A stretch of DNA of 64,000 bases from a bacterium. Its GTDB lineage: Bacteria > Patescibacteriota > Minisyncoccia > UBA6257 > 2-01-FULL-56-20. Positions 5,956-21,525 of the stretch are shown piece by piece; position 1 is the stretch's first letter, and the number at the start of each line of letters is the position of its first letter. Where the stretch lies: the NCBI GenBank assembly GCA_021827685.1, contig JAKAUM010000007.1:9842-73841 (forward strand), in the 5' to 3' direction. A program made the translations under genes and the position numbers. The notes under the pieces were generated by a model that saw nothing but the letters and a program-made list of their open reading frames with translations, ran no database searches and was not told the DNA's origin.

Positions 5956-5981
5956 ACCAAAAACCCCCTTTCGGGGGCTTT
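5956..5981 (-). terminator. Putative intrinsic terminator (CCCCC-TTTC-GGGGG hairpin with a U-tract on the minus strand)
   Basis: Perfect 5-bp GC stem with a 4-nt loop; revcomp gives hairpin + TTTTTGG, downstream of the GtrA-like gene. Confidence 0.4.
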
Positions 5982-6117
5982 GGCCAAAAAGAATCGTGTG
6001 GGACATGCCTTAGTCGACGTCGTCGTTAAGGTATGCTCGCACCCATTCACTGGCATTCTACCAGATATCTCGAAAATGTGCAAGCCCCGTGCGGCGGCAT
6101 CCCGCGCCGTGGCGCCC

Positions 6118-6756
6118 TTATATGCGCTTCGGTTCTACCCTCGACTGCCGGAAAACCAGATATTTGTATGCGAGGAAGTCCCAAAGGAAAGAAGCCGCGA
6201 TGCCGGCAAGAGCTCCGACGTTCGCCCAGACGTTCGCAGAAACGCCCGCGGGCCGCGCAACGCCGCTGAACACGTAAGAAGCGACGCTTACGTTTAAAAG
6301 GAACCCGACCGCGGCCGCGGCATAGAATTTGACCGCTTGCGCCGCGTTCACCGGCTCGTGCGCTTCGAAAGTCCAGAACTTGTTCCATGCGTAACTGTTC
6401 GTAGTCGAACAGAGGAACGAGATGCTCTTGAAAATCCGGTATCCCCAGACGCCGGGCGCGCCGAAGAGGATGATTTCGAGGTTCAAAACGCCGACATCCA
6501 CGAAACTATTCAGGGTACCCACTGCCGCGAATTTGCCGAACTGATACAGTACGCGCACGAACCTGCTCAGGAGATAGAGGACGGAAAGCGCGAGGGGCGC
6601 GAATGCCGTAAAGCCGAGGAACACGGCCGCGCGGCGCGCGGGAGTGAGCGCCAAGTGGAACTGACCCGCCACGTTCGCGAGAATCGGCTGGGAAAGAAGT
6701 CCGACGGCGGCGCCGATTACGAGCGCCGCCCAAAAATCACTTCGTTTCATAAACAA
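6118..6756 (-). CDS. GtrA-family membrane protein (N-terminally extended)
   Basis: QFGKFAAVGTLNSFVD...NKFWTF, GtrA-like TM signature. Confidence 0.7.
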   Translation of the reverse strand: MFMKRSDFWAALVIGAAVGLLSQPILANVAGQFHLALTPARRAAVFLGFTAFAPLALSVLYLLSRFVRVLYQFGKFAAVGTLNSFVDVGVLNLEIILFGAPGVWGYRIFKSISFLCSTTNSYAWNKFWTFEAHEPVNAAQAVKFYAAAAVGFLLNVSVASYVFSGVARPAGVSANVWANVGALAGIAASFLWDFLAYKYLVFRQSRVEPKRI

Positions 6757-8426: not shown

Positions 8427-9716
8427 CGTCGTGTCTCTTATCACTCCGACCACTTTATCCAACTCCATCGCATGGGAACCTTTCACTAAGATAAGATCCC
8501 CTTCGCGAACCGCCTGGCGCAGGGGTTTGGCGGCCTCATCCGCAACATCGAACGATTCTATCTTCGCCGCCTTCATGCCGCACTTCCGGGCGGCGTCCGC
8601 AATGAATCTGGCGCGGGGACCAACGGTGAACAGGAGATCGGCCGCGCCGGCCGCAAGGCGGCCGACTTCCTCGTGCGCCTCCGGCGCGTATTTTCCTATC
8701 TCCAGCATATCGCCGAGCACCGCAAGGCGGCGTTTTGCAGGAAGCTCGCCGAGCGCGGTGAGCGCCGCGCGCATGGAGAGCGGACTCGCGTTATATGAGT
8801 CGTCGATGACAAGAGAGTGCTTGATGCCGGGCAGGAGTTCCATCCGCGAGGATGCGGGCCTGTATCCGGCGAGCGCCTCGGAAATCTTAACGAGATTCAT
8901 GCCGAAAATCAATCCGGCGGCCGCGGCAGCGGCCGCGGCGTACGCCTGCGCCCTGCCGAACGCGCCCGGGATCCGCACCGGCACCGAACTCCCGGCAAAC
9001 TCCAGCCGGAAAGCGGTTCCGCGCGGCGTTCCGCCATCCATCCAATTCTCGAACCGCGCGATGCGGACATCGGCGCCTTTTTCGAATCCGTAAGTTACGG
9101 CGCGGGCGCGCGTGCGCGGCTCGAGCCGCATGACCGTATCGTCGTCGTGGTTCAAGACCGCGAACCCGGCCGCGGGCAGGCATTCGATAAGGCGGCCCTT
9201 TTCGCGCGCAACCGCTTCGGGACCGGAGTAGTATTCCAAGTGGGCGGGTGTTTCTCCGATGGCGGTCACGACGCTCGCATTCGGCCGCGCAATTCTCAAT
9301 AATTTTTTAATGTCGCCCGGACGGTCGGCTCCGTACTCTAAAACGAGAATTTCCGGATAGCCCGGGTCCTTTACGATGAGGCGGCGGGCGGACGAAAAAA
9401 TGACGCGGCACCAAAAGAAGGCCTTTCGGAGGCGGGCCGCGCCGGGCGGCGTTTCATGCGAAATAAGCGCAAGGTCGCGCGCGGGCCAATCCCCGAGAAT
9501 CGCGAGGGGAAGACCGAGGTCGTTGTTCAGGTTGCCCGCAGAGGCGCGGACGCGCGGCGTCCGGCCCCCGGAAAGCACCGCCGCGATTGCGAGCTTTGCA
9601 GACGTCTTTCCCACGCTCCCCGTAACGCCGATGACGGCCGGCCGGTAGCGGCGGATAGTGAGCCGCGCCAGGCCGCGCAGCAACCATCTGAGCAAATCGG
9701 TGTAAAAGCGTTTCAT
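8403..9716 (-). CDS. murF: UDP-MurNAc-tripeptide--D-Ala-D-Ala ligase MurF
   Basis: GVTGSVGKTS P-loop, Mur ligase middle and C-terminal domains; 3' end of the ORF overlaps tRNA-Glu by ~24 nt. Confidence 0.9.
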   Translation of the reverse strand: MKRFYTDLLRWLLRGLARLTIRRYRPAVIGVTGSVGKTSAKLAIAAVLSGGRTPRVRASAGNLNNDLGLPLAILGDWPARDLALISHETPPGAARLRKAFFWCRVIFSSARRLIVKDPGYPEILVLEYGADRPGDIKKLLRIARPNASVVTAIGETPAHLEYYSGPEAVAREKGRLIECLPAAGFAVLNHDDDTVMRLEPRTRARAVTYGFEKGADVRIARFENWMDGGTPRGTAFRLEFAGSSVPVRIPGAFGRAQAYAAAAAAAAGLIFGMNLVKISEALAGYRPASSRMELLPGIKHSLVIDDSYNASPLSMRAALTALGELPAKRRLAVLGDMLEIGKYAPEAHEEVGRLAAGAADLLFTVGPRARFIADAARKCGMKAAKIESFDVADEAAKPLRQAVREGDLILVKGSHAMELDKVVGVIRDTTPSSSSPV

Positions 9717-9745: not shown

Positions 9746-11341
9746 CTACGGCCGATCCGGCGGGATATTGTAATAATTGATAATATATTGCGAAAGCTCC
9801 CTGAACGCGGGCACCACGCTCTCTGCCGCGAGCGAGTTCACGGACAATCCGTCGAGGCGGATGAATGCGATGAAGCGGGGGTTGGATGCGGGGCCGAACC
9901 CGATATAGGAATCCGAGAGCTCGTTTTCATACCCGCCGGTCTTTAGATTGGGAATATAGGCGCTCCCCGTCTTCCCCGCAAGAGCGTATCCCTTAATACT
10001 CGCGACGCCTGCGAGGTCGACGGCCGACACCATCATCTTCGTGACCGCGGCCGCCGTCGTCGTCGAGATGACGCGCCGGATTTCCTGCGGCTTCATTGAG
10101 GCGTCGAGGTACGGCCTCATGAGGACGCCGCCGGTCGCAATGGCTCCGACCGCCGCTACGAGTTCCACGGGAGTCATCGCGATCCCCTGGCCGTACGCCG
10201 CCGTGTCGAAGTCCACCTGCGGCGAACTCGGGTTGAGCTGGCGAAGATCTCCCGCAATCTCGCCCGGAAGATCTATTCCCGTTTTCATGCCGAGCCCGAA
10301 CGCTTTCATGTATTCGGTGAAAATCGCGTTCCCCATCTGATTTTCCAAGAAAATCGCCCCGGTATTGATGGAGTGCTCGATGATTTCCGTCATCGTGGTA
10401 CCCGGCCCGTAAGGCCCGTGAGTCAGGAGGTTGTAATTCGTGATGTGCGCGCCGTCGACGTTCACGTATCCTTTATCGTCATAGGTTTCATTCGGCATAA
10501 TCTTGCCCGAATTGATCCCCGCGGACATCGTGAGCACCTTTACGATCGATCCCGGCTCGTACACGCCCTGCATGGTCGGATTCACGAAATCCTTGACCGA
10601 AAACTTGCCGTAGTCATTCGGGTCGAAATCAGGATACGCGCCCATCGCGAGGATTTTTCCGGTCATAGGATCTTCGACGAGGACGTCTCCTCCGGTCGCG
10701 TTATTCGCCTTTATAAGGTTGTCCAGAATCTTTTCGGCTTCGATCTGCACATTCGGATCTATCGTCAAATCAACCTCGGTGCCCTGCGCCAGCGTGCTGT
10801 TGTAATATTCCTCGATTCCATAGTGGCCGCTCTCGCCGCCGTTCGCGGCGTTCGGCCCTACGTAGCCGATGACCTGCGAGGCCGTCTTGCCGAGCGGATA
10901 ATAGCGGCTCGGGAGATAATCAGCGTAGAGTCCCTTCATATTCAGGTCCGTGATCGCCTGCGCGACCGAAGGATCCGCCTTGCGGACAAGAAGCTCATAC
11001 TGGTCGTGCGGCCTTGAAAAAATCGCGGCGAGCGAGGCGGGCGACATTCCGAGAATCGGCGCCGCCTTTTCCGCCGCAAGCTGGGGATCCGCGATGGAGG
11101 CGGGGACGGCGTAAACTATGGGATATTCTTTTTCCACCGCTACGGGGAGGAGCGTTCCGTTCTTATCGGTGAACGCAATGGCGCCGCGGGCGCCGTTCAC
11201 GCCCTGCGCGGCGATTGCTTCGCTCTCCGCCCGCGCAAGATAAAAACCTCCCTGTTTTACCTGGAGGTCGTACATATGAAATGCAAGAAGTCCGAATGCG
11301 ACGGCGAACGCGCCGATCAATAATGAGAAGCGACTTGCCAT
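9746..11341 (-). CDS. ftsI: Peptidoglycan D,D-transpeptidase (FtsI/PBP2 class B penicillin-binding protein)
   Basis: N-terminal TM; SxxK (GSIVK), SxN (SIN), KTG(S) motifs; dcw cluster position. Confidence 0.85.
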   Translation of the reverse strand: MASRFSLLIGAFAVAFGLLAFHMYDLQVKQGGFYLARAESEAIAAQGVNGARGAIAFTDKNGTLLPVAVEKEYPIVYAVPASIADPQLAAEKAAPILGMSPASLAAIFSRPHDQYELLVRKADPSVAQAITDLNMKGLYADYLPSRYYPLGKTASQVIGYVGPNAANGGESGHYGIEEYYNSTLAQGTEVDLTIDPNVQIEAEKILDNLIKANNATGGDVLVEDPMTGKILAMGAYPDFDPNDYGKFSVKDFVNPTMQGVYEPGSIVKVLTMSAGINSGKIMPNETYDDKGYVNVDGAHITNYNLLTHGPYGPGTTMTEIIEHSINTGAIFLENQMGNAIFTEYMKAFGLGMKTGIDLPGEIAGDLRQLNPSSPQVDFDTAAYGQGIAMTPVELVAAVGAIATGGVLMRPYLDASMKPQEIRRVISTTTAAAVTKMMVSAVDLAGVASIKGYALAGKTGSAYIPNLKTGGYENELSDSYIGFGPASNPRFIAFIRLDGLSVNSLAAESVVPAFRELSQYIINYYNIPPDRP

Positions 11342-13340: not shown

Positions 13341-13835
13341 ATGGCGGGAAAATCGCGGAAACTGTATTTCGCCCCGGGGGATAGCACGCTCGGCGTTTTT
13401 GCCGGGGAAAGGTTCCGCAGGGGCGATTTCATTGTTCGGTTCACGGGAGCCATCTATGGCGTCAAAGATTTACCCCCTATCGTTAGGCCCCAGGATGACC
13501 GCTTTGTTCAGGTGGGAATACGCAAATACATGGGTCCCTCGGGTGGGGTTGATGATTATTTTAATCACTCTTGTAACCCTAATGCGGGTTTAACGTTCGT
13601 GACGGACAGTAAAATCAATTTGATCGCCATTAAAGACATATCTCCCGGCGAGGAAATCACATGGGATTACTCAACCACCATGGACGAAGATGATTGGGAG
13701 ATGAATTGCAAGTGCGGAGCGGCAAACTGTCGCCGCAGGATTAGAGATTTTAAATATCTTCCCCGCGCGATTCAGAAAAAATATGCCATGCTCGGCATCG
13801 TTCCGGCATACAATCTTGCCCATATGACCGCTTAA
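13341..13835 (+). CDS. SET-domain protein-lysine methyltransferase with post-SET Cys cluster
   Basis: NHSCNPN motif; EEITWDY; CKCGAANCRRR post-SET. Confidence 0.8.
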   Translation: MAGKSRKLYFAPGDSTLGVFAGERFRRGDFIVRFTGAIYGVKDLPPIVRPQDDRFVQVGIRKYMGPSGGVDDYFNHSCNPNAGLTFVTDSKINLIAIKDISPGEEITWDYSTTMDEDDWEMNCKCGAANCRRRIRDFKYLPRAIQKKYAMLGIVPAYNLAHMTA

Positions 13836-15321: not shown

Positions 15322-15915
15322 CTAGACGACCCGCCCGAATATTTTTTCCGAGCGAATCAGCCGGGAAGCGGGTATGGCAAAATTAATCTGCCGTGCACCG
15401 CTCCTCAGGGCCCCTGATAATGCCCGTAGGTGCGGATGTTTTTGAACCATCGCACATATACGGGCGATCTTGCTTTCGATACCGGCGGCGGCCTCCAGGT
15501 CGCCGCGGCGGCGCGCAGCGTCTAGGTCCCGTCGTAAGCACCCGTTGTGCAGACAGCGGACCTGTCGGACTTCGGCCCCCGTAAATACGGGCGCACCGAT
15601 TTCCATCGACGAGCTGCCTCTCGCGTAGACGTAGTGACAGAGCCGCGGATCAATCTGCGGCAACTCTGCGAATGCGTTATCTGCCAAGGCCATCAGGCAC
15701 CTGCGCTCGGCAGGGAACGCGCCTCCGGCAGGAACCGGAAGCTCGCAGATCCATGCGGCACCGCTCAGAACAATGATGAGCGGCTCCTGGGAATCGGAAC
15801 GGAGATTCTTATAGCAAAACACTCCGTTCAGATATGCGAAAGCCGTATTCGCTACCGCGTTTAAGGACGTCGCAGGGTGCACCCCTGCGGTGATAGTGGA
15901 GTATTGCGATTGCAT
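15322..15915 (-). CDS. Hypothetical protein (no family recognised)
   Basis: 197-aa ORF with host-like GC; Cys-containing; function not recognisable by eye. Confidence 0.35.
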   Translation of the reverse strand: MQSQYSTITAGVHPATSLNAVANTAFAYLNGVFCYKNLRSDSQEPLIIVLSGAAWICELPVPAGGAFPAERRCLMALADNAFAELPQIDPRLCHYVYARGSSSMEIGAPVFTGAEVRQVRCLHNGCLRRDLDAARRRGDLEAAAGIESKIARICAMVQKHPHLRALSGALRSGARQINFAIPASRLIRSEKIFGRVV

Positions 15916-16260
15916 ACATCCATCCTTTTTGTCGAGATCCGATACTTCGATACTGCCGTTGAGTATAAACCCATGGTTTGCAAAAAGGAAGTTTCGGGTG
16001 TCTCTATTTTACCAAGCTCGCACCTATTTTCAAAATCGGTAATGTGCCACGCGCGGAGCGCGTGGTGAAACGAAACTAAATCGCACGCTCTCCGCCCCGC
16101 CGCCCGCCTCCGCTATCGCTCCGGCGGCAACCTCGCAGAACATTTTCCCTTACAATTTTTCTTTTGCGCCCCCCTGGAAAAATTCAAAAAAGGAAAGGGA
16201 AATTTCTGCTCGGTTCCGCCCTCCAAGTTTTCGGGCGAGGCGGCGAGGATACCAACGCTC

Positions 16261-16306
16261 GGACGGCTCGGCATTCCTCCCCCAGCCCCCTCCTGCCGAG
16301 CCGTCC
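16261..16306. repeat. Perfect 12-bp inverted repeat GGACGGCTCGGC / GCCGAGCCGTCC with a 22-nt C-rich loop
   Basis: Seen directly in sequence at the left edge of the AT-rich islet, ~40 nt upstream of the putative peptide-gene promoter. Confidence 0.5.
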
Positions 16307-16343
16307 TCACTTCGGAGAGAGAAGATGATTCAGAATTTTCTGT

Positions 16344-16372
16344 TTGACTTAGAGACATGCATTTATACATGG
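16344..16372 (+). promoter_or_regulatory. Putative sigma70-like promoter (TTGACT -35; TATACAT/TACATG -10 region)
   Basis: TTGACT then an AT-rich -10-like element ~55 nt upstream of the small peptide ORF; spacing not ideal. Confidence 0.25.
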
Positions 16373-16424
16373 ATGCGGAGATGTTCTTCGCATTATGTAC
16401 CTTAACTCCAGAAAGGAGACTGCC

Positions 16425-16553
16425 ATGAAGAACTCCAAGAAGTTTTCTTGGAAAGTCACCTCCAGTGACAAGCCTCTTCCCGGCACGATCGTGTGTCAGG
16501 AACAGTGCAGTTCCGGTGGTGGCGGCAACGGCAAGTGTGGCACTCGCAAGTAA
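16425..16553 (+). CDS. Small 42-aa Cys/Gly-rich basic peptide (MKNSKKFSWKVTSSDKPLPGTIVCQEQCSSGGGGNGKCGTRK); not in the ORF track
   Basis: AAAGGAG Shine-Dalgarno 6 nt before the ATG; strong intrinsic terminator 27 nt after the stop; upstream promoter-like element; three Cys plus a Gly run at the C-terminus. Confidence 0.45.
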   Translation: MKNSKKFSWKVTSSDKPLPGTIVCQEQCSSGGGGNGKCGTRK

Positions 16554-16579
16554 CACAGTGCCTCGCTCGCTCCCTCAGA

Positions 16580-16613
16580 GCGCAACAACTCTCGAGATTG
16601 TTGCGCTTTTTTT
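16580..16613 (+). terminator. Rho-independent terminator (GCGCAACAA-loop-TTGTTGCGC + T7)
   Basis: 9-bp perfect stem followed by TTTTTTT; sits between the convergent peptide gene and the metallopeptidase gene. Confidence 0.7.
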
Positions 16614-17424
16614 AGTTTGTTACCTCCATAAATCTTTTGGGGTCAGTTTTCATTAACTCTTCCCAAGATAGATTTTTGTTTCTATTTATAAACTCCTTGA
16701 CTAACCAGTAGCCCGTAGAATATCCGTTCCATTTTTTATATTTACCATTTCCAAATAAAAATTCTTTTATCACTTTTTGTTCTTTTGATTCTAGCGTGTT
16801 TTTATCTAAATCTTTTAGAATCTGAAAAGCTTCCTCTTTTTCTAATGCCCCCGCCCACTTTGTAGTTTTAGGATCAAAATATTGTTCCCTAAAATTTTCC
16901 GCCAATCCCTCCAGCAATATTTCATCTAAAAGTGTATAGCTATTAAAGTCATCGTAATGGTGATAGTAATAAATTGTATGATTTAGCTCGTGGGCGACAG
17001 TATTTTTGATAGATTCTTCCGAATATTCTTCTAAATTTATAAACAAATGAAAAACGCAACTATAAACAGCAACCGCCATTACGCCATCAAAAACTTTATC
17101 GTCTTTAGTCGTGAGATATGGATGGACAAAGATAAAATTCCTCGTCGGGACAGATAATTTCTCGTCGCACTTCTCGACAGTTTCCGAAATGACTTTTTCT
17201 ATCTCTGATTTTTGATCTTCGGAAATTTCCTTATACTGTTCAATATTCCCATTTCCAATATGATCTAGTAAGCCCTGCCTTAATAGTTCGATATCAGCAT
17301 AACCAGAATAATCAATACTACCTTGGTTTTTCATCAAGAAGATAATTGATTCAACAATCTCAGTTTTGTCTTTGAATTCTCCGTTTGGAAAATAGAATTC
17401 AACTCGTGATAAATCTTTACTCAT
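16612..17424 (-). CDS. Predicted Zn-dependent metallopeptidase, DUF2268-like (HExxH)
   Basis: VAHELNHTIYY contains an HExxH motif; very AT-rich gene (~30-35% GC) with Lys/Glu/Asn-rich codon usage unlike the host. Confidence 0.65.
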   Translation of the reverse strand: MSKDLSRVEFYFPNGEFKDKTEIVESIIFLMKNQGSIDYSGYADIELLRQGLLDHIGNGNIEQYKEISEDQKSEIEKVISETVEKCDEKLSVPTRNFIFVHPYLTTKDDKVFDGVMAVAVYSCVFHLFINLEEYSEESIKNTVAHELNHTIYYYHHYDDFNSYTLLDEILLEGLAENFREQYFDPKTTKWAGALEKEEAFQILKDLDKNTLESKEQKVIKEFLFGNGKYKKWNGYSTGYWLVKEFINRNKNLSWEELMKTDPKRFMEVTN

Positions 17425-17440
17425 AACTTCATTTTAACAA

Positions 17441-17475
17441 AATAAAAAGAGGCGGGAAGTCGTTAGCTTTCCGCC
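17441..17475 (-). terminator. Minus-strand intrinsic terminator just upstream of the metallopeptidase start
   Basis: Minus strand reads GGCGGAAAG-CTAACGA-CTTCCCGCC followed by TCTTTTTATTTT, then a TAAAAT -10-like box 6 nt before the ATG. Confidence 0.5.
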
Positions 17476-17880
17476 CCAAGCATCACTCGAAAGGATGAGG
17501 AAACTTGGTTAGCTAACCGTAAGCCATCTTTCCGCGTCCAAACCTTTCGGCGATTTCGTACAAACGCTTCATCCCGGCGGGTTCTTATCGATAACCAAGG
17601 GTCATCTGGACAGTTCCAGGAATAAGCACCCTAACAATGCTAAGGTCACCGTTTCCGCCGTAGTCATCCGAGAGCCTGAGTGGAACAGCTAAACATTTCC
17701 AACCCTTACTCGATTTTTCACACAAGCAGAATGATTGGCTCGCACATCCTCCTCGTCGAAAGAAAAGTGCGCGTCGCCGCAGGCGACGCTCCAAATTCGT
17801 TTGGAAAAATGGGGGGATCAGTGGGCGGCGCTTTGCGCCGCCCACAATTCGGTCTCCGAAAAACCGTTAAGTTCTGTTCG

Positions 17881-17954
17881 GGTGCCCCCGGAGGGAATTG
17901 AACCCCCATCGTATCCTTAGGACGGATCCGCTCTATCCGTTGAGCTACGAGGGC
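17881..17954 (-). tRNA. tRNA-Arg (anticodon CCU)
   Basis: Manual fold: GCCCTCG acceptor, GCTC/GAGC D-stem, anticodon loop GTCCTAA, T-arm GGGGG-TTCAATT-CCCTC; G32 unusual. Confidence 0.65.
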
Positions 17955-19366: not shown

Positions 19367-20407
19367 ATGGACTTTGCACGTTTAGACAAACTACGCCCCG
19401 GCAACAAAATTGCCGTCCTTTCCCCTTCCTTCGCTGCGCCGGGGAAATGGCCCTGGGTATATGAGCTCGGCTTGAAGCGCTTGCGTGAGGTATTTGGACT
19501 TGAACCGGTGGAATTCCCCACCACTAAAAAGATCGGCGCTTCAAAAGAGGAACGATCAAAAGATTTGATTGATGCGTTCGAGAATAAAGAGGTTAAGGCG
19601 GTCATCGCGTCCCTCGGCGGCGACGATCAGATAACGTATATCAAAAATCTTCCCGTCGAGCCGTTCGTCAATAATCCCAAGCCATTTTTTGGGTTCAGCG
19701 ACAATACACACTTTGAGAATTTCCTCTGGCTGCATGGCATCCCCTCCTACTACGGCGGATCGCTCTTTACCGAGTTCGCGATGCAAAAACGCATGGATCC
19801 CTACACGGTGGAATATCTTAAGCACGCCCTGTTCGATAAAGACGAATTCGAACTGAAGCCAAGTGATATGTATAACGACATGGGACTCGACTGGAATGAT
19901 CCGGCAAATCTCGACAAAGAGCGCGTCTATGAAAAGAATGAGGGATGGCTCTGGGACGGCACGCAAAATGCCGAAGGCACTACATGGGGCGGGTGCGTAG
20001 AATCCATCGACGAGCTCCTGCGGCACGGGGTTCAAATCCCGTCGCTTCAGGATTTCGAAAATGTCGTGCTTTTTGCCGAAACCTCCGAAGAAATTCCCTC
20101 AGCCGATTACGTGCGCCGCGTCTATCGCGCCCTCGGCGAGCGAGGAATCTTGCAGCGCGTGAAAGCTGTGCTGACCGGCCGCCCGAAAGCGTGGGAATTT
20201 AGTAACGAACGCAACGCGGAAGAGAAACACGCCCACCGGGAAGCGCAAAGAGCGGCAATCACCAAAACCGTAAGGCAGTACAATTCTTCTATCCCGATCA
20301 TCCACAATCTCGACATCGGACACACCGCACCGCAGATTCCTTTGCCGAATGGAAGACGAATCCGAATCGACGCGAAAGAAAAGAAAATATTCGTCGATTT
20401 CTCATGA
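19367..20407 (+). CDS. S66-family LD-carboxypeptidase (MccF/LdcA-like)
   Basis: GFSDNT (catalytic-Ser block), LFAETSEE (Glu block), IGHTAPQIPLPNG (His block); perfect TATAAT 7 nt upstream of the ATG. Confidence 0.8.
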   Translation: MDFARLDKLRPGNKIAVLSPSFAAPGKWPWVYELGLKRLREVFGLEPVEFPTTKKIGASKEERSKDLIDAFENKEVKAVIASLGGDDQITYIKNLPVEPFVNNPKPFFGFSDNTHFENFLWLHGIPSYYGGSLFTEFAMQKRMDPYTVEYLKHALFDKDEFELKPSDMYNDMGLDWNDPANLDKERVYEKNEGWLWDGTQNAEGTTWGGCVESIDELLRHGVQIPSLQDFENVVLFAETSEEIPSADYVRRVYRALGERGILQRVKAVLTGRPKAWEFSNERNAEEKHAHREAQRAAITKTVRQYNSSIPIIHNLDIGHTAPQIPLPNGRRIRIDAKEKKIFVDFS

Positions 20408-21525
20408 GGCATCGTGCGGCGGTATTTGTGCTCGATAACGGCAAAGTTCTCCTCTTCCATCGCTTCAAGAATGGGGATGAATATTATGCCGTTCCGGGCG
20501 GCGGTGTTGAGGCCAACGAAACTCCGGAAGAGGCCGCAATAAGAGAGCTAAAAGAAGAAACCAATTTGGATGTACTGCTCGGAGAAAAAATCGGAGAGCT
20601 CGAAGAAGATAGCAACCGACAATACTTCTATATTGCGAAGTCTTGGGCCGGCACACCGACACTCGGCGGCCCGGAAGCGGAACGCAATTCACCAAACAAC
20701 CAGTATATCCTCGAATGGATACCGATCAAGAAACTGGAAGGTATAAATTTGAGAACTGATATAGCGGCCATTCTTCTGAAACACGCAAACACGACCCAAT
20801 CCGACATCTTCTCCCGCATCAAAGCGCTCAACCTCCCCTTCGGCGAATATGTCGTCGTTTCAAGCGGCACCCTTGAGGCGCTGGGCATCCGTCCGGCGCG
20901 CGATCTGGATATCGCCGCAACGTCAAAGCTTTTCGAGAAACTCCGCGCGGAAGGCGGATGGACCGAAGAAGAGCGGTACGGGAAGATCTTCCTCAGCAAG
21001 CCCGGCATCGATATCATCCGCCAGCTTTCATGGGATACTTACCCCACCACTACCGAAGAAGCCATTAGATCGGCGCTCGTCATCGAAGGCATCCCATTTA
21101 TGAATCTTGATGAGTTGAAGCGATTCAAACGAGCGCTTGGCCGCGAAAAGGATTTTACAGATATCAAACTTATCGAAAAATATGAAGAAAATGCCGCACT
21201 GCGGTTCCTCCATAAAACCGTAACCGCAACTATCGATCGCCCGCTCGGGAGCGAGCATCCAAAGTGGAATTTTGAATATCCAATCAACTACGGATCTATC
21301 CAAAATACGAAAAGCAGCGATGGCGAGGAGGTTGATGCCTATGTGTTGGGCATAAATGAGCCGCTCAAGGAATTCACGGGAAAATGTATCGCGATCATCC
21401 ATCGCCTGGATGATGATGACGACAAGCTGGTGCTCGCGCCCGAAGGCATGGATTTTAGCGACGACGACATCCGGACAACCACCCATTTCCAAGAGCAATA
21501 CTTTACATCGGTGATTGTGAGATAA
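20404..21525 (+). CDS. Three-domain fusion: Nudix hydrolase + polβ-type nucleotidyltransferase + family-I inorganic pyrophosphatase-like domain
   Basis: Nudix box (GGVEANETPEEAAIRELKEETNL); middle VVVSSGTLEALGIRPARDLDIA (GS...DxD NTase signature); C-terminal YPINYGSIQNT...DGEEVDAYVLG...DDDDDKLVLAPEG resembles soluble PPase; 4-nt overlap with upstream gene. Confidence 0.65.
   Translation: MRHRAAVFVLDNGKVLLFHRFKNGDEYYAVPGGGVEANETPEEAAIRELKEETNLDVLLGEKIGELEEDSNRQYFYIAKSWAGTPTLGGPEAERNSPNNQYILEWIPIKKLEGINLRTDIAAILLKHANTTQSDIFSRIKALNLPFGEYVVVSSGTLEALGIRPARDLDIAATSKLFEKLRAEGGWTEEERYGKIFLSKPGIDIIRQLSWDTYPTTTEEAIRSALVIEGIPFMNLDELKRFKRALGREKDFTDIKLIEKYEENAALRFLHKTVTATIDRPLGSEHPKWNFEYPINYGSIQNTKSSDGEEVDAYVLGINEPLKEFTGKCIAIIHRLDDDDDKLVLAPEGMDFSDDDIRTTTHFQEQYFTSVIVR

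What the first reader, a model, noticed from the sequence alone, without database searches (positions are those of the whole stretch)
16425..16553. Unannotated 42-aa peptide with three Cys and a GGGGNG run
It is too short for the ORF track, but the expression signals are strong (AAAGGAG-N6-ATG, terminator stem of 9 bp + T7). The sequence MKNSKKFSWKVTSSDKPLPGTIVCQEQCSSGGGGNGKCGTRK has a hydrophilic N-terminal half and a C-terminal half rich in Cys/Ser/Thr/Gly. There is no signal peptide or TM segment. I do not recognise it as any ribosomal or known small protein.
Basis: seen in the sequence. Interest (0 to 1): 0.6.

Follow-up and report, generated by a model that had tools for sequence, protein, structure and literature searches.

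The report
Orphaned azole-peptide precursor gene relic
The 42-residue ORF is a real, conserved gene for the precursor of a microcin-B17-like "azole" antibiotic-type peptide found in ultra-small (CPR) bacteria, but in this genome the enzyme that modifies it is a broken pseudogene and its promoter carries a deletion, so here it is most likely a leftover.

Summary
In detail: ORF 16425-16553 (+), AAAGGAG-N6-ATG, 9-bp stem + T7 terminator. It is not a chance ORF. I found 44 distinct relatives. pN/pS is 0.17 in this frame and 1.84 in the antisense frame, and the core QEQCSSGGGGNGKCG stays invariant despite third-position changes. In 19 of 24 distinct loci the peptide gene converges on a DUF2268 Zn-protease gene and a ~726-aa single-chain enzyme: leader-binding RRE domain + SagB/McbC-type FMN dehydrogenase + YcaO cyclodehydratase. 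It is therefore the precursor (leader with an F-x-x-x-V motif, Cys/Ser/Gly core) of a linear azole-containing peptide (TOMM/LAP), resembling microcin B17 in composition and chemistry. The Zn-knuckle idea fails because C24 is not conserved. In this window the cassette is degraded. Only the last ~80-90 codons of the enzyme gene remain (17486-17752, -), with two in-frame stops. No other YcaO lies in the 64 kb. The otherwise invariant TTGACA-N17-TATATT promoter has a 9-nt spacer deletion. The same state is 100% identical in four assemblies. Best reading: a relic precursor of a horizontally acquired, decaying RiPP cassette. DUF2268 has its own promoter and remains intact. The class is known. The precursor family and fused-enzyme architecture appear undescribed.

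The parts
16425..16553 (+). 42-aa precursor peptide gene. Leader is about residues 1-23/27 (PKKFSWKVT, F7-x-x-x-V11). Core is about residues 24/28-42 (C-QEQ-CSSGGGGNGKCGTRK). C28, S29, S30 and C38 are the predicted heterocyclisation sites.
16412..16418 (+). Shine-Dalgarno AAAGGAG, 6 nt before the ATG. Conserved in relatives.
16373..16393 (+). Conserved 5'-UTR stem-loop of the precursor mRNA (AUGCGGAG-AUGUU-CUUCGCAU). Intact here.
   Evidence: 7 pairs, 4 of them with changes on both sides among 17 loci.
16344..16372 (+). Damaged promoter. The -35 TTGACT (16344-16349) is kept, but 9 nt of the spacer are missing relative to 16 relatives, and the -10 equivalent reads TGCATT or TATACA at the wrong spacing.
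   Evidence: relatives read TTGACA-N17-TATATT/TATAAT. The scan finds no + strand promoter.
15991..16343 (+). Peptide-side arm of the cassette's flanking inverted repeat, including the GC-rich hairpin 16261-16272/16296-16307. This is the left boundary of homology with relatives. The partner arm, upstream of the enzyme gene in intact loci, is deleted here.
16580..16613 (+). Intrinsic terminator of the peptide gene (9-bp stem + T7). Conserved, with compensatory changes in relatives.
16612..17424 (-). Intact DUF2268 zincin-type metallopeptidase (HELNH at residue 145, invariant EGLAE). Candidate leader peptidase or immunity protease.
17431..17439 (-). Extended -10 element (TGTTAAAAT) 6 nt upstream of the DUF2268 ATG. 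Predicts a separate, leaderless transcript. Conserved in all 25 loci examined.
17439..17477 (-). Hairpin + T-run terminator between the enzyme gene stop and DUF2268. Slightly weakened here (one A.C mismatch).
17486..17752 (-). Pseudogene remnant of the RRE-dehydrogenase-YcaO enzyme. Only about residues 636/650-726 of 726 remain. In-frame stops lie at 17585-17587 and 17513-17515. DNA homology to relatives ends at 17711.
17881..17954 (-). tRNA-Arg(CCT) bordering the deletion. In intact relatives a tRNA gene often sits just beyond the enzyme-side arm.

Best explanation
The ORF encodes the precursor of a linear azole-containing peptide (TOMM/LAP RiPP). It belongs to a three-gene cassette that is widespread in CPR/Patescibacteria.

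In intact cassettes the pathway is inferred as follows:
- The N-terminal leader (invariant K-F-x-W, F-x-x-x-V/I) docks on the RRE domain of a single ~726-aa enzyme.
- The enzyme's YcaO domain uses ATP to cyclodehydrate Cys/Ser of the Gly-rich core (Q-x-Q-C-S-S-G...C-G) to azolines.
- Its SagB/McbC-type FMN domain oxidises the azolines to thiazoles and oxazoles.
- The adjacent DUF2268 zinc peptidase removes the leader, or else protects the producer.
- The product is a small microcin-B17-like poly-azole peptide.

In this window the cassette is a decayed, horizontally acquired remnant. The enzyme gene has lost about 640 of 726 codons, and the remainder carries two nonsense codons. The peptide's promoter has a 9-nt spacer deletion. 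The peptide gene is therefore most likely an unexpressed, or at best unmodified, relic whose ORF is still intact because it is a small mutational target.

Shown: gene reality, family, synteny, enzyme domain composition, the pseudogene and the promoter lesion. Inferred: the chemistry of the product, the role of DUF2268, and the lack of expression here.
For: Gene reality:
- Relatives are listed.
- pN/pS is 0.12-0.3.
- The sense frame gives 0.17 against 1.84 for the antisense frame, and core variation falls almost entirely at third codon positions.

Synteny:
- The arrangement peptide -> <- DUF2268 <- Nitroreductase+YcaO fusion is seen.
- 19 of 24 distinct loci are intact.

Enzyme:
- Pfam finds YcaO (1e-36) and Nitroreductase (1e-13).
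- NCBIfam finds TOMM_cyclo_SagD (2e-39) and SagB (9e-18), both below curated cut-offs, which suggests a divergent branch.

Leader motif:
- F7-x-x-x-V11 corresponds to the FXXXB motif that binds the SagC/McbB scaffold (PMC2676033).
- F is >=90% conserved in 44 peptides. Position +4 is V or I in most of them by inspection of the alignment.

Gly-rich Cys/Ser core:
- It is comparable to McbA, which has a 26-aa leader and a Gly-rich core with 4 Ser and 4 Cys converted to azoles (PMC6722960).

Decay in this window:
- tblastn finds only residues 636-726 of the enzyme and no other YcaO in the 64 kb.
- The remnant has two in-frame stops.
- It also carries unique changes at otherwise invariant sites.
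- The 9-nt promoter deletion stands against 16 relatives.
- The state is identical in four assemblies.

Foreign origin:
- The cassette is 31-37% GC in a 55-60% GC background.
- Flanks are unrelated between loci.
Against: - The peptide ORF, RBS, 5'-UTR hairpin and terminator are all intact. The three amino-acid differences from the clade consensus (P4S, K14S, G41R) lie at positions that also vary in relatives with intact enzymes (S4 in L017; N14/T14 in L017/L032). There is no positive sign of relaxed constraint on the peptide itself.
- DUF2268 is intact, with pN/pS 0.16 against its closest relative and no excess of unique substitutions. Part of the cassette may still be in use.
- Only 64 kb of a 343-kb contig, and of an unknown total genome, was searched. 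A second synthetase elsewhere cannot be excluded.
- Promoter rules for CPR bacteria are untested. A weak alternative promoter (TTGACT-N14-TATACA) is conceivable.
- No heterocycle chemistry has been demonstrated for any member of this family.
Confidence: 0.7

Rival explanations
1. The peptide is still functional in this genome. Either a second synthetase encoded outside the window matures it in trans, or the retained peptide + DUF2268 pair has a role that does not need YcaO. For example, DUF2268 could be an immunity protease in a resistant non-producer, with the unmodified peptide acting as substrate, decoy or signal.
For: - The ORF, RBS, 5' hairpin and terminator are intact.
- DUF2268 is intact, with pN/pS 0.16.
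- DUF2268 has its own conserved terminator, extended -10 and leaderless start, so it does not depend on the deleted enzyme promoter.
- Five distinct loci (window, L031, L036, L040, L042) have no intact YcaO gene. The three with remnants (window, L031, L042) have different deletion junctions. All five kept full-length peptide and DUF2268 ORFs.
- L015 keeps DUF2268 alone.
Against: - Ascertainment bias: loci were found with the peptide or with DUF2268 as query, so retention of the query gene is expected.
- The peptide promoter is damaged in this window.
- No YcaO lies elsewhere in the 64 kb.
- The probability that both nonsense mutations fall in the remnant by chance is only about 0.05 (my calculation), which is weak evidence of continued selection on the other genes.
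- The remnant is only mildly decayed, so the loss may be too recent for DUF2268 to show relaxation.
- L031's DUF2268 has lost an otherwise invariant Glu.
Confidence: 0.2
2. One reading: an independent small structural or regulatory protein, such as a Zn knuckle using C24/C28/C38, unrelated to its neighbours.
For: Three Cys within 15 residues. No signal peptide or transmembrane segment. No hit to known families.
Against: - C24 is replaced by F, S, A, R, L or T in many relatives.
- There is no fourth ligand.
- The number of Cys and the spacing after C28 vary in relatives (GQCCGQCGG, GKCGGKCGGKCGK).
- Linkage to a YcaO/dehydrogenase enzyme is strict in 19 of 24 loci.
- Leader/core bipartite conservation is typical of RiPP precursors.
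Confidence: 0.03
3. Not a peptide gene at all: a chance ORF, a non-coding RNA, or the antisense 147-aa ORF (16113..16556, -) is the real gene. One assembly's gene caller chose the antisense ORF.
For: The antisense ORF is longer and was called in L051. The region is GC-rich with hairpins.
Against: - Antisense pN/pS is 1.84 against 0.17 for the sense frame.
- Substitutions concentrate at sense third positions.
- No Pfam hit for the antisense product.
- No Rfam hit.
- The antisense ORF length is not conserved (80 aa in L016).
Confidence: 0.01

Closest known systems
Microcin B17 system (McbA precursor; McbBCD synthetase; TldD/E leader protease)
   Same: - Short precursor with an N-terminal leader that carries an F-x-x-x-hydrophobic recognition motif.
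- Gly-rich core with Cys and Ser, including adjacent C-S-S, which could give fused azoles.
- A zinc metalloprotease is implicated in leader removal.
   Different: - No detectable sequence homology of the peptide to McbA or to any curated precursor family.
- The core is much shorter: about 15-19 aa and 3-5 candidate sites, against 43 aa and 8 azoles.
- There is no E1-like/McbB scaffold. An RRE domain is fused to the dehydrogenase and YcaO in one chain instead.
- The protease is DUF2268, not TldD/E.
- The cassette has no dedicated exporter or McbG-type immunity gene.
- The host is CPR bacteria, and the target is unknown.
Cyanobactin heterocyclase/oxidase enzymes (LynD/TruD/PatD; ThcOx)
   Same: - Leader recognition is through an RRE.
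   Different: - Cyanobactin D enzymes are E1-like + RRE + YcaO fusions without the oxidase.
- Here the order is RRE - oxidase - YcaO, and the E1-like domain is absent.
- There are no PatA/PatG proteases, no macrocyclisation signals and no recognition-sequence cassettes in the peptide.
Streptolysin S-type and other LAP clusters (SagABCD, plantazolicin, klebsazolicin)
   Same: - Linear precursor with an FXXXB leader motif (PMC2676033).
- SagB-type dehydrogenase and SagD-type YcaO signatures.
- A cluster-encoded protease.
   Different: - B, C and D are separate proteins (or a C-D fusion) in known LAPs (PMC4603692).
- Their proteases are CaaX-type or TldD/E.
- The cores are not Gly-rich Q-x-Q-C-S-S-G.
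- NCBIfam scores here fall below the SagB/SagD curated cut-offs, which indicates a divergent branch.

Membership tests
TOMM/LAP (azole-containing RiPP) precursor peptide | Short ribosomal peptide with an N-terminal leader and a C-terminal core rich in heterocyclisable Cys/Ser/Thr | tested here: met
   42 aa. The leader is conserved at K/F/W. The core Q-x-Q-C-S-S-G...C-G is conserved in 44 relatives.
TOMM/LAP (azole-containing RiPP) precursor peptide | Leader recognition motif (FXXXB-type) for the scaffold/RRE | tested here: met
   F7-S-W-K-V11 in the window. F is >=90% conserved, and position +4 is V or I in most relatives by inspection of the alignment. The motif is defined in PMC2676033. Binding itself was not tested.
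TOMM/LAP (azole-containing RiPP) precursor peptide | Genomic linkage to a YcaO cyclodehydratase | tested here: met
   For the family, 19 of 24 distinct loci have an intact YcaO-containing enzyme two genes away. The window retains the 3' remnant of that same gene.
Functional TOMM/LAP cluster in this window | Intact YcaO cyclodehydratase gene | tested here: not met
   Only about 77-91 C-terminal codons remain, with two in-frame stops. No other YcaO in the 64 kb.
Functional TOMM/LAP cluster in this window | Leader-binding partner (E1-like C protein, Ocin-ThiF or RRE) | tested here: not met
   [not shown]
Functional TOMM/LAP cluster in this window | FMN-dependent azoline dehydrogenase (SagB/McbC) | tested here: not met
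   [not shown]
TOMM/LAP (azole-containing RiPP) precursor peptide | Thiazole/oxazole heterocycles in the mature product | not testable with these tools
   Needs mass spectrometry or NMR of a product from an intact relative.
Microcin B17 family (McbA homologue, gyrase poison) | Sequence homology to McbA or a curated precursor model; DNA-gyrase target | tested here: not met
   No NCBIfam or Pfam hit for the peptide. The resemblance is compositional only. The target is not testable here.
Zincin metallopeptidase (DUF2268, Pfam clan MA), the neighbouring gene | HExxH plus a downstream Glu ligand on a zincin fold | tested here: met
   PF10026 at 1e-32. H145, E146, H149 and E172/E176 are invariant in 32 sequences. 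AF2 pLDDT is 94. Only weak Foldseek hits were found, all to zincins. Catalysis was not tested.

The most novel reading that the evidence does not exclude
Loss of the synthetase is not simple decay. It produces a recurrent 'resistant non-producer' genotype in CPR populations. On this reading DUF2268, which has its own promoter and a leaderless transcript, is an immunity or detoxifying protease against the azole peptide made by neighbours, and it is kept under selection after the enzyme is deleted. The intact precursor gene then either rides along or serves as substrate or signal. At least three, and possibly five, independent losses of the enzyme gene with both small genes retained, plus one DUF2268-only locus, are compatible with this. 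More broadly, the three-gene, inverted-repeat-flanked, tRNA-adjacent cassette would be a minimal mobile azole-RiPP weapon specific to CPR bacteria.
Probability: 0.15. Interest if true: 0.6.

Novelty: new variant of a known kind. Interest (0 to 1): 0.45.

Why it matters
CPR/Patescibacteria are uncultivated, reduced-genome episymbionts, and little is known about their chemical interactions. This small ORF leads to a compact three-gene azole-peptide cassette. Its fused enzyme occurs in more than 300 sequence clusters at 90% identity. Surveys have registered these only as 'YcaO BGCs', and in one case attributed them to thioamidation (PMC12153355). The precursor, its leader and core logic, the all-in-one RRE-oxidase-YcaO enzyme and the DUF2268 partner give a directly testable minimal system for heterologous expression. 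For genome annotation, it shows that an intact small ORF with a good RBS and terminator can still be a fossil once its neighbourhood is read. For this particular window the biological importance is modest, because the system is broken.

Tried and rejected
- **Known RNA families.** Rfam at gathering and permissive thresholds found no RNA family in 15850-16700.
- **Peptide family membership.** Pfam and NCBIfam gave no hit for the peptide.
- **Zn knuckle.** Rejected because C24 is not conserved.
- **Antisense 147-aa ORF.** Rejected by pN/pS of 1.84.
- **Assembly artefact for the truncated enzyme.** Rejected: the locus is 100% identical in four assemblies.
- **Phage carriage.** No copy on viral contigs.
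- **RRE from sequence alone.** Inconclusive (PqqD E 0.0015; Penicillinase_R-type winged helix in 11 of 15 members; PDB profile search empty). Settled by the structure comparison.
- **Relaxed selection on the window's DUF2268.** None detectable. The remnant is too mildly decayed to date the loss, so the test has little power.
- **Naming the window's organism.** Failed. The source assembly carries no names in the collections, and it is not among the GTDB species representatives.
- **Literature.** Searches on DUF2268, YcaO + Patescibacteria, CPR + RiPP, and azole + antiSMASH found no description of this precursor family.
- **Upstream GC-rich hairpin (16261-16307).** It is not clearly conserved across loci, so I did not pursue it as a structured RNA.

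Full report
**1. The observation**

The ORF is exactly as described. ATG is at 16425 and TAA at 16551-16553, giving 42 codons. AAAGGAG (16412-16418) lies 6 nt upstream of the ATG. Downstream is a hairpin, GCGCAACAA (16580-16588) / TTGTTGCGC (16598-16606), followed by seven T (16607-16613). It folds at -17.8 kcal/mol. The consensus scanner missed it only because its loop limit is 8 nt. No Rfam family matches the region at gathering or permissive thresholds. Pfam and NCBIfam give nothing for the peptide.

**2. It is a real, selected coding gene**

A word-indexed search found five relatives. A full HMMER scan of 1.84 billion representatives found 24. A scan of genome contigs with the neighbouring DUF2268 protein and a scan of metagenome contigs with the peptide alignment brought in 35 further loci.

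Forty-four distinct peptides align. At least 90% conserve the leader residues K, F and W (..PKKFSWK[VI]T..) and the core Q-x-Q-C-S-x-G ... C. Within the close clade the core CQEQCSSGGGGNGKCG is invariant at the protein level, while its codons vary at third positions.

Pairwise pN/pS is 0.12-0.3. Summed over 12 members it is 0.17 in the sense frame and 1.84 in the antisense frame. Variable columns fall 12/11/34 by codon position, and 1/1/13 in the core. This also disposes of the overlapping antisense 147-aa ORF (16113..16556), which one assembly's gene caller preferred.

**3. What it is**

In every relative with enough flanking sequence the peptide gene converges on a DUF2268 gene. In 19 of 24 distinct loci that gene is preceded on the same strand by a ~726-aa protein carrying Nitroreductase and YcaO domains.

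The evidence for that protein's three domains is as follows:
- Pfam finds YcaO (1e-36) and Nitroreductase (1e-13).
- NCBIfam finds TOMM_cyclo_SagD (2e-39), SagB dehydrogenase (9e-18) and a weak PqqD stretch at residues 22-76. All score below the curated cut-offs, so this is a divergent branch.
- PDB sequence relatives are TruD, MusD, LynD and McbC.

One polypeptide therefore combines leader recognition, cyclodehydration and azoline oxidation. These are the three activities of a thiazole/oxazole synthetase. In known systems they are separate B, C and D proteins or C-D fusions (PMC4603692).

The peptide fits the substrate role. It has a bipartite leader/core organisation. It has an F7-x-x-x-V11 motif like the FXXXB motif needed for scaffold binding in SagA and McbA (PMC2676033). 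Its Gly-rich core with Cys/Ser is reminiscent of McbA, which has a 26-aa leader and a Gly-rich 43-aa core with four Ser and four Cys converted to azoles (PMC6722960).

The Zn-knuckle idea fails. C24 is F/S/A/R/L/T in many relatives, and the number and spacing of downstream Cys vary.

DUF2268 is a zincin. HELNH and EGLAE are invariant. The model is confident (pLDDT 94). The only structural neighbours are metallopeptidases, and all the matches are weak. I infer that it is the leader peptidase, by analogy with the Zn-protease TldD/E in microcin B17 maturation, or alternatively an immunity protease.

**4. Anatomy of the cassette (from relatives)**

The cassette has three transcription units.

(a) The peptide gene. 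Sixteen relatives share TTGACA-N17-TATATT/TATAAT. This is followed by a 5'-UTR stem-loop that shows compensatory changes (4 of 7 pairs), then the SD, the ORF and a terminator.

(b) The enzyme gene. It has a similar promoter. Within a locus, the ~100-360 nt upstream of the peptide and of the enzyme are near-identical inverted copies (97 nt at 96% in L011; about 150 nt in L012). Between loci they differ.

(c) DUF2268. A hairpin + T-run follows the enzyme's stop codon. Then TGnTAAAAT lies 6-7 nt before the ATG, which suggests an extended -10 promoter and a leaderless mRNA. This is conserved in all 25 loci inspected.

The cassette sits in unrelated genomic contexts, often just downstream of a tRNA gene. 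In this window it is 31-37% GC against 55-60% in the flanks. It is not found on viral contigs. Named hosts are CPR bacteria: Paceibacterota, Parcubacteria, Saccharibacteria, Moranbacteria and Ca. Oleincola. The enzyme family has at least 334 clusters at 90% identity.

**5. The state of the cassette in this window**

- tblastn with an intact enzyme finds only residues 636-726 (17752-17486, -) and nothing else in the 64 kb. DNA homology to all relatives stops at 17711.
- The remnant carries two in-frame stops replacing invariant Gln (17585-17587 and 17513-17515). It also has H->C and F->L changes at otherwise invariant positions.
- The deleted segment included the RRE, the dehydrogenase, most of YcaO, the enzyme promoter and the second repeat arm. 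tRNA-Arg (17881-17954) and its terminator-like hairpins now abut the remnant.
- The peptide promoter has lost 9 nt of the spacer relative to all 16 relatives. The -10 equivalent (TGCATT) lacks the conserved A at position 2. The best alternative is TTGACT-N14-TATACA, and no + strand promoter is found by scan.
- The locus is 100% identical in an NCBI MAG contig (GCA_027318325.1, 342,864 bp), two Logan assemblies and an ENA assembly. It is therefore not an assembly artefact.

The peptide ORF, SD, 5' hairpin and terminator are intact. Its three differences from the clade consensus fall at positions that also vary in intact cassettes. DUF2268 is intact, with pN/pS 0.16 against its nearest relative and no excess of unique substitutions.

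**6. Interpretation**

The best explanation is a relic precursor gene of a horizontally acquired azole-RiPP cassette whose synthetase has been deleted and whose own promoter is crippled. Confidence that it is a LAP-type precursor is about 0.9. Confidence that it is non-functional here is about 0.7.

Decay of this cassette is common:
- Four other lineages lack the enzyme. L031 and L042 have remnants with different junctions from the window's. L036 and L040 have no detectable remnant.
- One locus keeps DUF2268 alone (L015).
- One has ATG->ACG at the peptide start (L034).
- One has a 1-nt frameshift (L047).

The main rival (about 0.2) is that the peptide and/or DUF2268 still work here, either through a synthetase elsewhere in the genome or as a YcaO-independent module. 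Three things are compatible with an 'immune non-producer' state: the independent DUF2268 promoter, the intact DUF2268 ORF, and the repeated retention of peptide + DUF2268 after enzyme loss. However, the loci were ascertained through those very genes, and the statistical support is weak (both nonsense mutations landing in the remnant by chance: p of about 0.05). I could not search the rest of the genome.

**7. Novelty**

The class (TOMM/LAP) is well known. I found no description of this precursor family, of the RRE-oxidase-YcaO single-chain architecture, or of a DUF2268 partner in the searchable literature. One CPR survey lists YcaO BGCs from antiSMASH and attributes them to thioamidation (PMC12153355). 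I therefore rate it a new variant of a known kind. It is of moderate interest as a family and of low functional importance in this particular genome.

Noticed in passing
L011 6942-7038 / 10437-10533; L012 2678-2802 / 6197-6346; window 15991-16343 (single surviving arm): The regions upstream of the peptide gene and of the enzyme gene are near-identical inverted copies within each locus (up to 96% over 97 nt) but diverge between loci. This suggests gene conversion or a shared regulatory module that co-controls the two convergent units. The window arm contains a perfect 12-bp hairpin (16261-16272/16296-16307) with a CCUCC-rich loop.
   Followed up: partly
window 17431-17477 (-) and the equivalent position in 24 other loci: Between the enzyme stop codon and DUF2268 every locus has a hairpin + T-run terminator. 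It is followed immediately by TGnTAAAAT, 6-7 nt before the ATG, which predicts a separately transcribed, leaderless DUF2268 mRNA.
   Followed up: partly
L011 10757-10839; L013 113-197; L014 7327-7400; L019 4450-4532; L024 9709-9786; L031 7264-7336; window 17881-17954: A tRNA gene (Leu, Ile, Asp or Arg; different in different loci) lies just beyond the enzyme-side end of the cassette, in the same orientation as the enzyme gene. Together with unrelated flanks and low GC, this suggests an island-like mobile cassette. No integrase was seen.
   Followed up: partly
L031 7062-7181; L042 7066-7404; L036 2708-3347; L040 7015-7545; L015 1-160; L034 4476-4478; L047 ~6030: Other decay states of the same cassette: enzyme deletions with different junctions, a DUF2268-only locus, a peptide start codon changed from ATG to ACG, and a 1-nt deletion frameshift in the leader. 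L031's DUF2268 has also lost an otherwise invariant Glu (E168G).
   Followed up: partly
window 16113-16556 (-): A 147-aa antisense ORF covers the peptide gene and its promoter region. It was called as a gene in one public assembly (L051), but it is spurious (antisense pN/pS 1.84; no Pfam hit).
   Followed up: yes
L010 641-1300 and 1659-2468: This locus has two DUF2268 paralogues flanking the peptide gene. Its peptide has an extended core (…GKCGGGGKCGSAQRTALSN).
   Followed up: no
L012 7662-11533: Next to the azole cassette lies a second putative RiPP locus (ATP-grasp MvdD-like ligase, TPR protein, ABC transporter), resembling a graspetide cluster.
   Followed up: no
L001 4233-5951 with repeats 5970-6052 / 9521-9618: In this more distant cassette the repeat is direct rather than inverted. 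It places the same upstream sequence in front of an AMP-binding (adenylating) enzyme gene and the YcaO-fusion gene, hinting at an extra tailoring enzyme.
   Followed up: no
window 13341-13835 (+): A 164-aa SET-domain protein (PF00856, 2e-16) sits between mraZ and tRNA-Val. SET-domain methyltransferases are uncommon in bacteria.
   Followed up: no
window 20404-21525 (+): A 373-aa protein fuses an N-terminal NUDIX hydrolase domain to a C-terminal inorganic-pyrophosphatase-like domain. It lies directly downstream of an LD-carboxypeptidase gene.
   Followed up: no
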